DNA of 64,000 nucleotides from the NCBI RefSeq assembly GCF_003018255.1, contig NZ_CP027440.1. The stretch is one strand, 5' to 3'. Below the pieces are notes generated by a model. That model saw nothing but the letters and a program-made list of their open reading frames with translations. It made no database searches and was not told the DNA's origin. The position numbers and the translations under genes are program-made. Numbering within the stretch: the first letter of the stretch is position 1; every line of letters begins with the position of its first letter. Origin of the DNA: Escherichia coli (GTDB lineage: Bacteria > Pseudomonadota > Gammaproteobacteria > Enterobacterales > Enterobacteriaceae). Shown piece by piece: positions 56,209-60,149 of the stretch.

Positions 56209-57876
56209 TTACTTCGCAATACGCTTGTACTTGATACGCTTCGGCTCCAGCGCGTCTGCGCCCAGCGTGCGTTTCTTGTACTCTTCGTACTCGGTAAAGT
56301 TACCTTCGAAGAACTCAACTTTACCCTCATCCTGGTAATCCAGGATGTGCGTGGCGATACGGTCGAGGAACCAACGGTCGTGCGAGATAACCATCGCGCA
56401 GCCCGGGAACTCCAGCAGGGCGTTTTCCAGCGCGCGCAGGGTTTCGATATCCAGGTCGTTGGTTGGTTCGTCGAGCAGCAGCATGTTGCCGCCAACTTGC
56501 AGCAACTTCGCCAGATGCAGACGACCGCGCTCACCGCCGGAGAGTTCGCCAACGCGTTTACCCTGATCAACCCCTTTAAAGTTAAAGCGGCCAACGTAGG
56601 CGCGGCTTGGCATCTCGGTGTTGCCGATTTTCATGATATCCAGCCCGCCGGAAACTTCTTCCCAAACGGTTTTGCTGTTATCCATTGAGTCACGGAACTG
56701 ATCAACCGATGCCAGTTTCACCGTTTCACCCAAAGTGATGGTGCCGCTGTCCGGCTGTTCCTGACCAGAGATCATACGGAACAGCGTCGATTTACCCGCA
56801 CCGTTCGGACCGATGATCCCGACGATCGCCCCTTTCGGGATCGAGAAACTCAGGGAGTCAATCAGCAGACGATCGCCATAGGATTTACGCAGATTGCTGA
56901 CTTCCAGCACTTTGTCGCCCAGACGCGGTCCAGGTGGAATAAACAGTTCGTTGGTTTCGTTACGTTTCTGATATTCGGTGCTGTTCAGTTCTTCAAAGCG
57001 CGCCAGACGTGCTTTACCTTTCGACTGACGGCCTTTAGTACCTTGACGTACCCACTCCAGCTCTTTCTCAATCGACTTACGACGCGCAGCTTCTTGTGAA
57101 GCTTCCTGCGCCAGACGCTGATCTTTCTGCTCCAGCCAGGAGGAGTAGTTACCTTCCCACGGAATACCTTCACCGCGGTCCAGTTCGAGGATCCAGCCCG
57201 CAACGTTATCGAGGAAGTAACGGTCGTGGGTAATCGCCACAACGGTGCCTTCGAAGTCGTGCAGGAAGCGTTCCAGCCAGGCCACGGATTCGGCATCCAG
57301 GTGGTTGGTCGGTTCGTCGAGCAGCAGCATGTCTGGTTTTTCCAGCAGCAGGCGGCACAACGCCACGCGACGACGCTCACCACCGGAGAGGTTAGCGATT
57401 TTCGCGTCCCAATCCGGCAGACGCAGCGCATCCGCCGCACGCTCCAGCTGAACGTTCAGGTTGTGACCGTCGTGAGCCTGAATGATCTCTTCCAGACGGC
57501 CCTGTTCAGCGGCCAGTTTGTCAAAATCGGCATCCGGATCGGCGTACAGTGCATACACTTCATCCAGGCGTTTCAGGGCGTTAACCACTTCAGAAACCGC
57601 TTCTTCAATGGACTCACGCACGGTGTGTTCCGGGTTCAACTGCGGTTCCTGCGGCAGATAACCAATCTTGATATCCGGTTGCGGACGCGCTTCGCCTTCG
57701 ATGTCTTTATCAATGCCCGCCATAATGCGCAGCAGGGTGGACTTACCCGCGCCGTTCAGACCCAGGACACCAATTTTTGCCCCAGGGAAGAAACTCAGAG
57801 AGATGTTTTTCAAAATATGACGTTTCGGCGGAACAACTTTGCCGACACGATGCATGGTATAAACGAATTGAGCCAC
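56209..57876 (-). CDS. ettA: Energy-dependent translational throttle protein EttA (YjjK), ABC-F ATPase
   Basis: 555 aa with two ABC cassettes (GLNGAGKST, GPNGAGKST); GTG start preceded by GAGG. Confidence 0.95.
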   Translation of the reverse strand: MAQFVYTMHRVGKVVPPKRHILKNISLSFFPGAKIGVLGLNGAGKSTLLRIMAGIDKDIEGEARPQPDIKIGYLPQEPQLNPEHTVRESIEEAVSEVVNALKRLDEVYALYADPDADFDKLAAEQGRLEEIIQAHDGHNLNVQLERAADALRLPDWDAKIANLSGGERRRVALCRLLLEKPDMLLLDEPTNHLDAESVAWLERFLHDFEGTVVAITHDRYFLDNVAGWILELDRGEGIPWEGNYSSWLEQKDQRLAQEASQEAARRKSIEKELEWVRQGTKGRQSKGKARLARFEELNSTEYQKRNETNELFIPPGPRLGDKVLEVSNLRKSYGDRLLIDSLSFSIPKGAIVGIIGPNGAGKSTLFRMISGQEQPDSGTITLGETVKLASVDQFRDSMDNSKTVWEEVSGGLDIMKIGNTEMPSRAYVGRFNFKGVDQGKRVGELSGGERGRLHLAKLLQVGGNMLLLDEPTNDLDIETLRALENALLEFPGCAMVISHDRWFLDRIATHILDYQDEGKVEFFEGNFTEYEEYKKRTLGADALEPKRIKYKRIAK

Positions 57877-57965
57877 GTTGGACTTCGCCTCTATGTTTAT
57901 CGTGATGATGAGTTTTCAAAGGCGAAGTGTAGCCTGTTTCCTTATCTAATCCCAGCCGGTCGATC

Positions 57966-58075
57966 ACCCTCGCAGTATACTCGTCATACTTCAAGTTGCA
58001 TGTGCTGCGCTTACGCTCGCTCACCCCAGTCACTTACTTCTGTAAGCTCCTGGGGACTCACTCACTTATCGCCTT
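57966..58075 (-). repeat. ERIC (IRU) element
   Basis: Reverse complement contains GTGAGTCCCCAGGAGCTTACAGAAGTAAGTGACTGGGGTGAGCGAGCG, matching the ERIC core inverted repeats. Confidence 0.55.
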
Positions 58076-58211
58076 CCTGCAACTCGAATTATTTAGAGTA
58101 TAAAAGTAAAAAAGTGTCCGTAACGTGGCGTAAACGGCAATGACTGGTTAGCATAAATCTATTACGCGGCATGACGCTGCATTGATGTATTTACACTTAG
58201 AGGATGCGCTT

Positions 58212-60149
58212 GTGGAAAAAGCCAAACAAGTTACCTGGCGGCTGTTGGCTGCCGGTGTCTGTCTGCTGACGGTCAGCAGCGTGGCGCGAGCCGACTCACT
58301 GGATGAGCAGCGTAGCCGCTACGCCCAAATCAAGCAGGCCTGGGATAATCGACAAATGGATGTGGTCGAACAAATGATGCCTGGACTGAAAGATTATCCG
58401 CTTTATCCCTACCTGGAATACCGTCAGATCACCGATGACCTGATGAATCAACCGGCGGTGACGGTCACTAACTTTGTTCGCGCTAACCCCACGCTTCCTC
58501 CCGCTCGCACGCTGCAATCTCGTTTCGTCAATGAACTGGCGCGGCGTGAAGACTGGCGTGGCTTGTTAGCCTTTAGCCCGGAAAAGCCCGGAACTACCGA
58601 AGCGCAATGTAATTACTACTATGCGAAATGGAACACCGGGCAGAGTGAAGAAGCCTGGCAAGGGGCGAAAGAGCTGTGGCTAACCGGCAAGAGCCAGCCT
58701 AACGCCTGTGACAAGTTATTTAGCGTCTGGCGTGCGTCAGGTAAACAAGATCCGCTGGCGTATTTAGAGCGTATCCGTCTGGCGATGAAAGCGGGTAACA
58801 CTGGACTCGTAACAGTGCTGGCAGGGCAGATGCCTGCCGATTACCAGACTATCGCCTCGGCAATCATTTCACTGGCGAACAACCCTAATACGGTACTGAC
58901 CTTCGCGCGTACAACCGGAGCGACCGATTTTACCCGTCAAATGGCGGCGGTGGCGTTTGCCAGTGTGGCGCGGCAGGATGCTGAAAATGCACGGCTGATG
59001 ATCCCGTCGCTTGCCCAGGCGCAGCAGCTTAATGAAGATCAGATTCAGGAGCTGCGCGATATCGTCGCCTGGCGTTTGATGGGCAATGATGTCACCGATG
59101 AGCAGGCGAAATGGCGCGATGACGCCATTATGCGTTCGCAATCTACTTCGCTTATTGAACGGCGCGTGCGAATGGCGCTTGGCACCGGCGATCGTCGCGG
59201 CCTGAATACCTGGCTGGCGCGTTTGCCGATGGAGGCGAAAGAGAAAGATGAATGGCGTTACTGGCAGGCGGATTTACTGCTGGAACGCGGACGTGAAGCT
59301 GAAGCAAAAGAGATTTTGCATCAACTCATGCAACAGCGTGGTTTCTACCCGATGGTTGCAGCACAACGCATCGGTGAAGAGTATGAGCTGAAGATTGATA
59401 AAGCGCCGCAGAATGTTGACAGCGCCCTGACTCAGGGGCCGGAGATGGCGCGCGTGCGCGAGTTGATGTACTGGAATCTCGATAATACCGCGCGTAGCGA
59501 GTGGGCCAATCTGGTGAAGAGCAAGTCAAAAACAGAGCAGGCGCAACTGGCTCGGTATGCTTTCAATAACCAATGGTGGGAACTTAGCGTTCAGGCAACG
59601 ATCGCCGGGAAGCTTTGGGATCATCTGGAAGAGAGATTCCCGCTGGCCTACAACGATCTTTTCAAACGTTACACCAGTGGGAAGGAGATCCCGCAAAGCT
59701 ATGCGATGGCGATTGCCCGTCAGGAGAGCGCCTGGAATCCGAAAGTGAAATCACCGGTAGGGGCCAGCGGCCTGATGCAGATTATGCCGGGCACGGCGAC
59801 CCATACGGTGAAGATGTTCTCTATTCCTGGTTATAGCAGCCCTGGGCAATTGCTGGATCCGGAAACGAACATCAACATTGGCACCAGTTACCTGCAATAT
59901 GTTTATCAGCAGTTTGGCAATAACCGTATTTTCTCCTCAGCAGCTTATAACGCCGGACCTGGACGGGTGCGAACCTGGCTTGGCAACAGCGCCGGGCGTA
60001 TCGACGCTGTGGCATTTGTCGAGAGTATTCCGTTCTCCGAGACGCGCGGTTATGTGAAGAACGTGCTGGCTTATGACGCTTACTACCGCTATTTCATGGG
60101 GGATAAACCGACGTTGATGAGCGCCACGGAATGGGGACGTCGTTACTGA
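58212..60149 (+). CDS. slt: Soluble lytic murein transglycosylase Slt70
   Basis: (M)EKAKQVTWRLLAAGVCLLTVSSVARA signal peptide, superhelical domain, C-terminal lysozyme-like ES-GLMQ motif; GTG start at 58212. Confidence 0.9.
   Translation: MEKAKQVTWRLLAAGVCLLTVSSVARADSLDEQRSRYAQIKQAWDNRQMDVVEQMMPGLKDYPLYPYLEYRQITDDLMNQPAVTVTNFVRANPTLPPARTLQSRFVNELARREDWRGLLAFSPEKPGTTEAQCNYYYAKWNTGQSEEAWQGAKELWLTGKSQPNACDKLFSVWRASGKQDPLAYLERIRLAMKAGNTGLVTVLAGQMPADYQTIASAIISLANNPNTVLTFARTTGATDFTRQMAAVAFASVARQDAENARLMIPSLAQAQQLNEDQIQELRDIVAWRLMGNDVTDEQAKWRDDAIMRSQSTSLIERRVRMALGTGDRRGLNTWLARLPMEAKEKDEWRYWQADLLLERGREAEAKEILHQLMQQRGFYPMVAAQRIGEEYELKIDKAPQNVDSALTQGPEMARVRELMYWNLDNTARSEWANLVKSKSKTEQAQLARYAFNNQWWELSVQATIAGKLWDHLEERFPLAYNDLFKRYTSGKEIPQSYAMAIARQESAWNPKVKSPVGASGLMQIMPGTATHTVKMFSIPGYSSPGQLLDPETNINIGTSYLQYVYQQFGNNRIFSSAAYNAGPGRVRTWLGNSAGRIDAVAFVESIPFSETRGYVKNVLAYDAYYRYFMGDKPTLMSATEWGRRY

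What the first reader, a model, noticed from the sequence alone, without database searches (positions are those of the whole stretch)
57966..58075. ERIC element in the ettA-slt intergenic region
The 335-bp gap between ettA and slt contains the ERIC core inverted repeats (…CCCCAGGAGCTTACA…AAGTAAGTGACTGGGGTGAGCG…) in reverse orientation. ERIC copies are strain-variable and can form stable RNA structures if transcribed. A spurious 305-aa antisense ORF in the track runs through it.
Basis: partly seen in the sequence, partly recalled or inferred. Interest (0 to 1): 0.25.

Follow-up and report, generated by a model that had tools for sequence, protein, structure and literature searches.

The report
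Strain-variable ERIC repeat between ettA and slt
This is an ordinary full-length copy of ERIC, a 127-bp mobile repeat long known in enteric bacteria, sitting between the ettA and slt genes in about 2% of E. coli strains and probably doing little there.

Summary
The element is a complete 127-bp ERIC (IRU/RU-1) repeat at 57976-58102, not 57966-58075. Both ERIC-PCR primer sites are present. It aligns without gaps to the published consensus and to other E. coli copies.

Comparison with K-12, BL21, O157, ST131 and Salmonella shows a clean insertion at a TA dinucleotide, which is duplicated, for a net gain of 125 bp. Only 125 of 5,426 complete E. coli genomes carry it here, E. coli C among them.

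This sequence variant has no donor copy. Its diagnostic 25-mer occurs in only 3 of about 100,000 species-representative genomes, each time at this same site: E. whittamii, Escherichia sp. E1V33 and a divergent 'E. coli'. Those copies differ at 0-1 of 127 bases, although slt differs by 5-9%. Within E. coli the carriers have several unrelated ettA/slt backgrounds. I infer one insertion event that spread by homologous recombination through very conserved flanks.

The element lies 99 bp upstream of ettA and 109 bp upstream of slt. That places it at the distal edge of the 105-bp region that suffices for ettA function, and upstream of a CpxR-like box for slt. It is therefore probably untranscribed and close to neutral. 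The kind is known and the interest is low.

The parts
57976..58102 (-). Complete 127-bp ERIC / IRU / RU-1 element. The conventional Wilson & Sharp consensus orientation reads on the minus strand.
   Evidence: Gapless alignment to the published consensus and to other copies. The insertion is delimited by empty-site alignments.
57976..57977 (.). Left copy of the duplicated TA target dinucleotide.
   Evidence: The empty site reads CGCAG-TA-AAAG. The occupied site reads CGCAG-TA-[123 bp]-TA-AAAG.
58101..58102 (.). Right copy of the duplicated TA target dinucleotide.
57976..58000 (+). Left terminal inverted-repeat arm (TATACTCGTCATACTTCAAGTTGCA).
   Evidence: Inverted repeat I1: 25-nt arms, 80% complementary.
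58078..58102 (+). Right terminal inverted-repeat arm (TGCAACTCGAATTATTTAGAGTATA).
   Evidence: Inverted repeat I1.
58018..58061 (.). Central conserved core palindrome that carries the ERIC2 (58018-58039, minus) and ERIC1R (58040-58061, plus) primer sites.
   Evidence: Inverted repeat I2 at 58024-58037 / 58042-58055.
56209..57876 (-). ettA (ABC-F translation factor), the left neighbour. Its GTG start lies 99 bp from the ERIC.
   Evidence: ORF list, Pfam ABC_tran x2, RefSeq annotation of near-identical genomes.
58212..60149 (+). slt / sltY (soluble lytic murein transglycosylase), the right neighbour. Its GTG start lies 109 bp from the ERIC.
   Evidence: ORF list, RefSeq annotation.
57226..58143 (+). 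Spurious 305-aa ORF, antisense to ettA and running through the ERIC.
   Evidence: No Pfam family. The same GTG opens only a 66-aa ORF in K-12.
57936..57975 (.). Hypervariable patch immediately left of the insertion point, with haplotypes A and B. Each haplotype occurs both with and without the ERIC.
58120..58134 (+). CpxR-box-like tandem GTAAC-N5-GTAAA on the slt side of the ERIC. This is context, not part of the element.
   Evidence: 2 matches in 64 kb, 0.46 expected. slt is reported to be in the Cpx regulon (PMC6863773). The CpxR consensus itself is from my own knowledge.

Best explanation
The feature is a canonical, full-length ERIC element, a non-autonomous miniature inverted-repeat transposable element of Enterobacteriaceae. 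It inserted once at a TA dinucleotide in the spacer between the divergently transcribed ettA and slt genes, and the TA was duplicated. The transposase that moves ERIC is unknown. TA targeting with terminal inverted repeats is the hallmark the literature gives for such elements. The insertion is derived, because the empty site is the state in Salmonella and in about 98% of E. coli. The copy has a unique sequence with no donor elsewhere, so it no longer looks mobile. I infer that it spread between Escherichia lineages by homologous recombination, using the almost invariant intergenic sequence on both sides as homology arms. It lies distal to the ettA promoter region that suffices for function and distal to the likely slt control region. 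It is therefore most likely not part of either mRNA and has little or no effect beyond widening the spacer from 210 to 335 bp. Shown here: its identity as ERIC, the TA duplication, the population frequency, the single sequence type and the cross-species sharing. Inferred: spread by recombination, lack of transcription and near-neutrality.
For: Identity: both primer sites; 127-bp gapless alignment to the published consensus and to other copies; terminal and central inverted repeats; hairpin z-scores of -6.0 and -7.9. Insertion and TA duplication. Outgroup: two Salmonella genomes have the empty site with a single TA. Frequency: 125 of 5,426 genomes. No donor: the best copy elsewhere in E. coli is 95.3% identical. 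The diagnostic 25-mer gave only 3 hits among the species-representative genomes, all at ettA-slt, and none in metagenome contigs. The best full-length copy listed on a plasmid is 95.3% identical and the best in a phage record is 89.8%. Cross-species near-identity: 0-1 differences in 127 bases against 4.7-9.0% divergence in slt, with Fisher p of 0.0003 to 0.005. Carriers sit on unrelated backgrounds: slt of E. coli C and RM9088 is 0.1% from non-carrier BL21, and ettA of APEC O2-211 and APEC O78:H4 is 0.2% from non-carrier CFSAN061763. Position relative to promoters: ettA with only 105 bp of upstream sequence complements a deletion (PMC11282234), and the ERIC starts at -100. A CpxR-like box lies on the slt side of the element. 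No sigma-70-like site was found in or at the ends of the element.
Against: No transcription start data for ettA or slt could be retrieved, so 'untranscribed' rests on the 105-bp complementation fragment and on motif position. The promoter scan also fails to find the real ettA and slt promoters, so its negative result is weak. The near-identity across species could reflect purifying selection rather than recent spread: ERIC divergence from E. whittamii (1/127) is not significantly lower than that of the conserved slt-side spacer (3/109, p = 0.34). Both left-flank haplotypes occur with and without the ERIC. Under a single origin this needs an exchange point or mismatch repair within about 10-40 bp of the element. 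I could not check carrier genomes for a second identical copy.
Confidence: 0.8

Rival explanations
1. The ERIC is co-transcribed as part of a long 5' leader of ettA or slt from a distal promoter. Its hairpin then changes mRNA stability or translation in an orientation-dependent way, as reported for Yersinia ERICs, where an RNase E site becomes exposed.
For: The RNA hairpin is very stable, especially in the ettA-sense strand (-54.1 kcal/mol, z -7.9). The literature reports co-transcription and RNase E-dependent effects for ERICs in Yersinia (PMC2229807; PMC10969869). A Vibrio antisense RNA family in Rfam aligns end to end with the element, so ERIC-like sequences can be transcribed.
Against: 105 bp upstream of ettA is enough for complementation and the ERIC starts at -100. 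The slt-side 109 bp is almost invariant from E. coli to Salmonella and holds a CpxR-like box, which suggests the slt promoter lies proximal to the ERIC. The published Yersinia effect concerns ERICs downstream of genes, not ERICs between divergent promoters.
Confidence: 0.1
2. The copy is kept by selection as a DNA-level element. It could act as a spacer or insulator, or as a cruciform-prone palindrome between two divergent, stress-regulated promoters (RpoS for ettA, Cpx for slt). That would explain why it is nearly invariant across species.
For: There are 0-1 differences in 127 bases across lineages whose slt differs by 5-9%. The single-strand DNA fold is -18.2 kcal/mol, z -4.2. The insertion splits an intergenic region that is otherwise conserved as far as Salmonella.
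Against: About 98% of E. coli lack it, and it is absent from the two Salmonella genomes examined, so it is not needed. The palindrome is imperfect, with large internal mismatched regions. Rarity combined with identity fits recent spread better than long-term constraint. One carrier (PE164) has a substitution in the core stem, and another (strain 104) has an 8-bp deletion at the right junction.
Confidence: 0.07
3. The element is ancestral to Escherichia and was lost by precise excision in most lineages, so the empty sites are secondary.
For: It is present in E. whittamii, Escherichia sp. E1V33 and a divergent 'E. coli' lineage. Both left-flank haplotypes occur with and without it.
Against: Both Salmonella genomes and E. 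coli strains as different as K-12, BL21, O157 and ST131 show the empty site with one TA and no footprint. An ancient element should have diverged as its flanks did, yet it shows 0-1 differences in 127 bases.
Confidence: 0.03

Closest known systems
ERIC / IRU / RU-1 (Sharples & Lloyd 1990; Hulton et al. 1991; Wilson & Sharp 2006)
   Same: The length is 127 bp. The central core carries both ERIC-PCR primer sites. It has terminal inverted repeats ending in TA, a TA target duplication and an intergenic location. It would form a stable hairpin if transcribed. E. coli genomes hold a median of 10 blastn matches.
   Different: Nothing structural differs. This copy has six private substitutions relative to its nearest E. 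coli paralogue (positions 35, 36, 38, 41, 65 and 93). It also sits between divergent promoters, so it is probably not in a transcribed region, where ERICs were originally described.
Salmonella SeRU-1 subtype of ERIC (Delihas 2007, PMC2759123)
   Same: Both termini are identical to SeRU-1 (positions 1-34 and 95-127). Overall identity is 89.0%, higher than the 85.0% to the E. coli consensus.
   Different: The internal region differs at 14 positions. The other E. coli copies examined also have SeRU-1-type ends, so this is not evidence of foreign origin.
Other TA-targeting bacterial MITEs: Correia/NEMIS (Neisseria) and RUP (pneumococcus, linked to IS630-Spn1)
   Same: They are small and non-coding, with terminal inverted repeats, TA at the termini and a TA duplication. 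Filled versus empty sites between strains are used as evidence of mobility (PMC2229807).
   Different: There is no sequence relationship. Correia elements carry promoter and IHF motifs, and RUP has a candidate transposase. Neither is known for ERIC.
Rfam V_AS5 (RF02818, Vibrio antisense RNA)
   Same: The match runs end to end (model positions 1-129) with the ERIC on the minus strand and has the same long-hairpin architecture.
   Different: The score is 36.3 bits against a gathering threshold of 96, so this is not a member. It is best read as a distant Vibrio relative of ERIC.

Membership tests
ERIC / IRU / RU-1 | Unit length of about 127 bp | tested here: met
   The element is 127 bp including both TAs (57976-58102), and the net insertion relative to empty sites is 125 bp.
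ERIC / IRU / RU-1 | Conserved central inverted-repeat core (ERIC1R and ERIC2 primer sites) | tested here: met
   ERIC2 matches 22/22 and ERIC1R 20/22, adjacent and divergent, with none expected by chance.
ERIC / IRU / RU-1 | Full-length alignment to the family consensus | tested here: met
   Gapless over 127 columns: 85.0% to the E. coli consensus, 89.0% to SeRU-1, and 91.3-95.3% to the copies at preT-yeiS, cusC-cusF and ybhI-ybhJ.
ERIC / IRU / RU-1 | Terminal inverted repeats with 5'-TA-3' termini and a target-site duplication | tested here: met
   The arms are 25 nt and 80% complementary, with a perfect 7-bp terminal TATACTC/GAGTATA. The TA duplication is shown by nine empty-site alleles.
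ERIC / IRU / RU-1 | Multiple dispersed intergenic copies in enterobacterial genomes | tested here: met
   5,425 of 5,426 E. coli genomes have matches, with a median of 10 places per genome. The copies examined are intergenic.
ERIC / IRU / RU-1 | Transcript would fold into a long stable stem-loop | tested here: met
   -39.0 kcal/mol (plus strand) and -54.1 kcal/mol (minus strand), z -6.0 and -7.9, with none of 200 shuffles as stable.
ERIC / IRU / RU-1 | Location inside a transcribed region (original description) | tested here: inconclusive
   The element lies between divergent genes, at -100 from ettA, just inside the far end of the 105-bp region sufficient for ettA function, and upstream of a CpxR-like box for slt. 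No start-site data could be retrieved.
Rfam V_AS5 (RF02818) | Score at or above the family's gathering threshold | tested here: not met
   36.3 bits against a threshold of 96.
Rfam isrH (RF01391) | Score at or above the family's gathering threshold | tested here: not met
   17.7 bits against a threshold of 45, covering only part of the model. The match did not reappear in the narrower search.

The most novel reading that the evidence does not exclude
This ERIC copy may not be a passive passenger. Its near-perfect conservation across Escherichia species, with 0-1 changes in 127 bases against 5-9% divergence in slt, could reflect selection. It might serve as a regulatory spacer or insulator, or as the source of a small structured transcript, between the RpoS-linked ettA promoter and the Cpx-linked slt promoter. 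In that case its repeated transfer between species would be adaptive introgression of a MITE allele.
Probability: 0.07. Interest if true: 0.45.

Novelty: new member of a known kind. Interest (0 to 1): 0.15.

Why it matters
For biology in general it matters little, because ERIC elements have been known since 1990-91 and strain-variable copies have been reported. There are two modest points of value. First, this locus is a clean filled/empty polymorphism with a TA duplication. It therefore documents an ERIC insertion that arose after Escherichia and Salmonella separated, in a genus where ERICs are mostly old and fixed. Second, the allele is shared almost unchanged by E. coli, E. whittamii and other Escherichia lineages. 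This illustrates how a small insertion can cross species boundaries by recombination through highly conserved flanks. Practically, it adds 125 bp to an intergenic amplicon, it is an extra ERIC-PCR priming site in about 2% of strains, and it produces a false 305-aa ORF that annotation should ignore. E. coli C, a standard laboratory strain, carries the element, so any regulatory effect could be tested easily.

Tried and rejected
Transcription start sites. I searched the supplements of four genome-wide start-site or operon papers (PMC4782308, PMC4681348, PMC4161252, PMC3415461) for ettA/yjjK, slt or their coordinates. Nothing usable is held.

Wilson & Sharp 2006. The key ERIC evolution paper is not in the library. 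I took its consensus from Delihas 2007, Table 1a.

Promoters. The sigma-70 scan of 57800-58300 found nothing on either strand. I rejected it as evidence either way, because it also misses the real ettA and slt promoters.

Donor copy. I looked in E. coli genomes, plasmids, phages, about 100,000 species-representative genomes and metagenome contigs. No identical or near-identical copy turned up at any other locus. The plasmid tally shows one record at 99% identity or above that is not among the listed rows; it is probably a short partial match, and I did not examine it.

Literature. No held paper mentions ERIC together with yjjK and slt.

Rfam. V_AS5 and isrH are sub-threshold resemblances, not memberships.

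A 13-nt direct repeat between the left flank (57957-57969) and the ERIC interior (58014-58026) matches at 11 of 13 positions. I treated it as chance.

Deletion or excision origin. I considered it and rejected it on the Salmonella outgroup and the lack of divergence.

Full report
**What is in the sequence.** ettA is the ORF at 56209-57876 on the minus strand. It starts with GTG and has two ABC_tran domains. slt (sltY) begins at 58212 on the plus strand, according to the RefSeq annotation of near-identical genomes. Inside it, the ERIC2 primer sequence AAGTAAGTGACTGGGGTGAGCG matches 22/22 at 58018-58039 on the minus strand. ERIC1R matches 20/22 at 58040-58061 on the plus strand. Neither matched in any of 100 shuffles of the window, and there is no other copy in the 64 kb.

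The repeat finder shows a central inverted repeat at 58024-58037 / 58042-58055. It also shows 25-nt terminal arms at 57976-58000 / 58078-58102. The whole palindrome therefore spans 57976-58102, which is 127 bp.

**Is it an ERIC?** Delihas 2007 (PMC2759123, Table 1a) prints the 127-nt E. coli consensus of Wilson & Sharp as its reverse complement, together with a Salmonella copy, SeRU-1. The window's plus strand aligns to both without a single gap. Identity is 85.0% to the E. coli consensus and 89.0% to SeRU-1. Other E. coli copies that I fetched lie at preT-yeiS, cusC-cusF and ybhI-ybhJ. They are 91.3-95.3% identical and also gapless.

If transcribed, the element folds into one long hairpin. 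The energy is -39.0 kcal/mol for the plus strand (z -6.0) and -54.1 kcal/mol for the minus, ettA-sense strand (z -7.9). Every structural feature that defines the family is met. The Rfam search returned only sub-threshold resemblances. V_AS5, a Vibrio antisense RNA, scored 36.3 bits against a threshold of 96 but aligned over its whole model. isrH was weak.

**Insertion anatomy.** Alignment with K-12, BL21, O157:H7, ST131 strain EC958 and two close non-carriers shows that they all lack exactly this segment. The empty site reads ...CGCAG-TA-AAAGTAAAAAAG.... The occupied site reads ...CGCAG-TA-[123 bp]-TA-AAAG.... The net gain is 125 bp and the TA is duplicated. This matches what the literature gives for ERIC and similar MITEs: terminal inverted repeats, TA termini and a target-site duplication (PMC2229807; PMC3184786). 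Two Salmonella enterica genomes also have the empty site with a single TA. Their surrounding intergenic sequence is strikingly conserved with E. coli. The insertion is therefore the derived state.

**Distribution.** I used a 247-bp query consisting of the ERIC plus 60 bp on each side. It is covered at 80% or more in 125 of 5,426 complete E. coli genomes (2.3%), and all 60 genomes listed are 100% identical. Carriers include E. coli C and its derivatives (WG5, C122), several APEC strains and PCN033. One carrier (PE164) has a single substitution in the core. Another (strain 104) has an 8-bp slippage deletion at the right junction. RefSeq annotates nothing at this position in any of these genomes. 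'Strain-variable' is therefore confirmed and quantified. Strain-specific ERIC loci are already reported in general: a 2024 review credits Wilson & Sharp with 14 additional loci in strains other than K-12 (PMC10969869). I found no held paper that mentions this particular locus.

**Origin and spread.** The copy carries six private substitutions relative to its closest E. coli paralogue. In non-carrier genomes the best ERIC match is at most 95.3% identical. The best full-length copy listed on a plasmid is 95.3% identical, and the best in a phage record is 89.8%.

A 25-mer spanning the private substitutions was scanned against one genome for each of about 100,000 species. It gave three hits, one per genome, all at the ettA-slt site and in the same orientation. 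The hits were Escherichia whittamii, Escherichia sp. E1V33 and a divergent 'E. coli' that serves as a separate species representative. The same 25-mer gave no hit in the metagenome contigs. I therefore found no donor copy, and the simplest reading is one insertion event.

Those three copies differ from the window at 1, 0 and 0 of 127 positions. The adjacent slt coding sequence differs by 9.0%, 7.1% and 4.7%. Fisher tests give p = 0.0003, 0.0003 and 0.005.

Within E. coli, carriers sit on unrelated flanking backgrounds. slt of E. coli C and RM9088 is 0.1% from non-carrier BL21. ettA of APEC O2-211, APEC O78:H4 and 2009C-3133 is 0.2% from non-carrier CFSAN061763. Yet the intergenic region of all five is identical to the window's.

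The 40 bp directly left of the element (57936-57975) is a hypervariable patch with two main haplotypes. Both occur with and without the ERIC. The remaining 59 bp on the ettA side and 109 bp on the slt side are almost invariant, even in Salmonella.

My inference is that the allele moves between lineages, and across species boundaries, by homologous recombination that uses these conserved blocks as arms. The alternative is strong purifying selection on the ERIC, and I cannot exclude it. The ERIC is no more conserved than the slt-side spacer (1/127 against 3/109, p = 0.34). Selection does, however, fit poorly with the element's absence from 98% of E. coli.

**What it probably does here.** The ERIC begins 100 bp upstream of the ettA start codon. 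Ousalem et al. 2024 complemented an ettA deletion with the ORF plus only 105 bp upstream, which they describe as the native promoter. They note that the promoter is annotated as RpoS-dependent (PMC11282234). The sequence needed for ettA function therefore lies almost wholly on the ettA side of the insertion point.

On the other side, a tandem GTAAC-N5-GTAAA sits at 58120-58134, 17 bp beyond the ERIC and 78-92 bp upstream of the slt start. It resembles the CpxR consensus, which I cite from my own knowledge. slt is reported as a Cpx-regulon gene (PMC6863773). The element thus appears to have landed in the one poorly constrained spot between two divergent control regions.

It is then most likely outside both mRNAs. 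The RNA-level effects described for Yersinia ERICs would not apply in that case. The simple sigma-70 scan found no promoter created by the element, but it also misses the genuine promoters, so this is weak evidence. I could not obtain start-site data, so 'untranscribed and near-neutral' remains an inference.

**The ORF.** The 305-aa ORF at 57226-58143 is antisense to ettA. It has no Pfam match. In K-12 the same start codon opens only a 66-aa ORF.

**Verdict.** It is a previously undescribed copy (to my knowledge) of a well-known family, so it counts as a new member of a known kind. The small points of interest are the clean TA-duplication polymorphism, its rarity at 2.3%, and the nearly identical allele in other Escherichia species.

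Noticed in passing
window 57874-57935 (minus strand, ettA leader): A perfect 9-bp inverted repeat lies at 57882-57890 / 57920-57928. In the ettA-sense RNA it extends to a 12-bp stem that buries the GAGG Shine-Dalgarno just upstream of the GTG start (-16.4 kcal/mol, z -3.8). The stem arms are invariant between E. coli and Salmonella, while the loop differs and includes a 3-nt indel. This suggests a conserved structure or operator that controls ettA.
   Followed up: partly
window 58120-58134 (+): A CpxR-box-like tandem GTAAC-N5-GTAAA lies 78-92 bp upstream of slt. It is one of only two such matches in the 64 kb and is conserved in Salmonella. slt is reported as a Cpx-regulon gene.
   Followed up: partly
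window 57936-57975: A 40-bp hypervariable patch sits inside an intergenic region that is otherwise conserved from E. coli to Salmonella. It includes a run of four adjacent differences (TTAT versus CCGC), a 4-bp deletion in ST131 strain EC958 and mosaic haplotypes in K-12. This points to a mutation or recombination hot spot next to the insertion site.
   Followed up: partly
L012 1501-1627 (ST131, ybhI-ybhJ ERIC) versus L010 (O157): The ST131 copy differs from the O157 orthologue by GCTCC to GTGAC in one core arm. The change makes the central palindrome perfect. It looks like a palindrome-templated (template-switch) multi-base mutation.
   Followed up: no
L024 724-731 (E. coli strain 104; corresponds to window 58102-58110): One carrier has an 8-bp deletion at the right ERIC junction (TAAAAGTAAAAAAGTG becomes TAAAAGTG), consistent with slippage between the AAAAGT repeats. 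It removes part of the conserved A-tract upstream of slt.
   Followed up: partly
window 57980-58103 (minus strand): The Rfam family V_AS5 (a Vibrio antisense RNA) aligns over its whole 129-position model with the ERIC at 36 bits. That Rfam family is therefore probably a Vibrio relative of ERIC rather than an unrelated RNA.
   Followed up: partly
'phages' collection records AFYI01000007.1 and AGRM01000005.1 (L016, L017): The phage collection contains 500-kb Salmonella chromosomal shotgun contigs, and short contigs labelled as phage that carry chromosomal ettA-slt sequence. Hits in that collection are therefore not all of phage origin.
   Followed up: no
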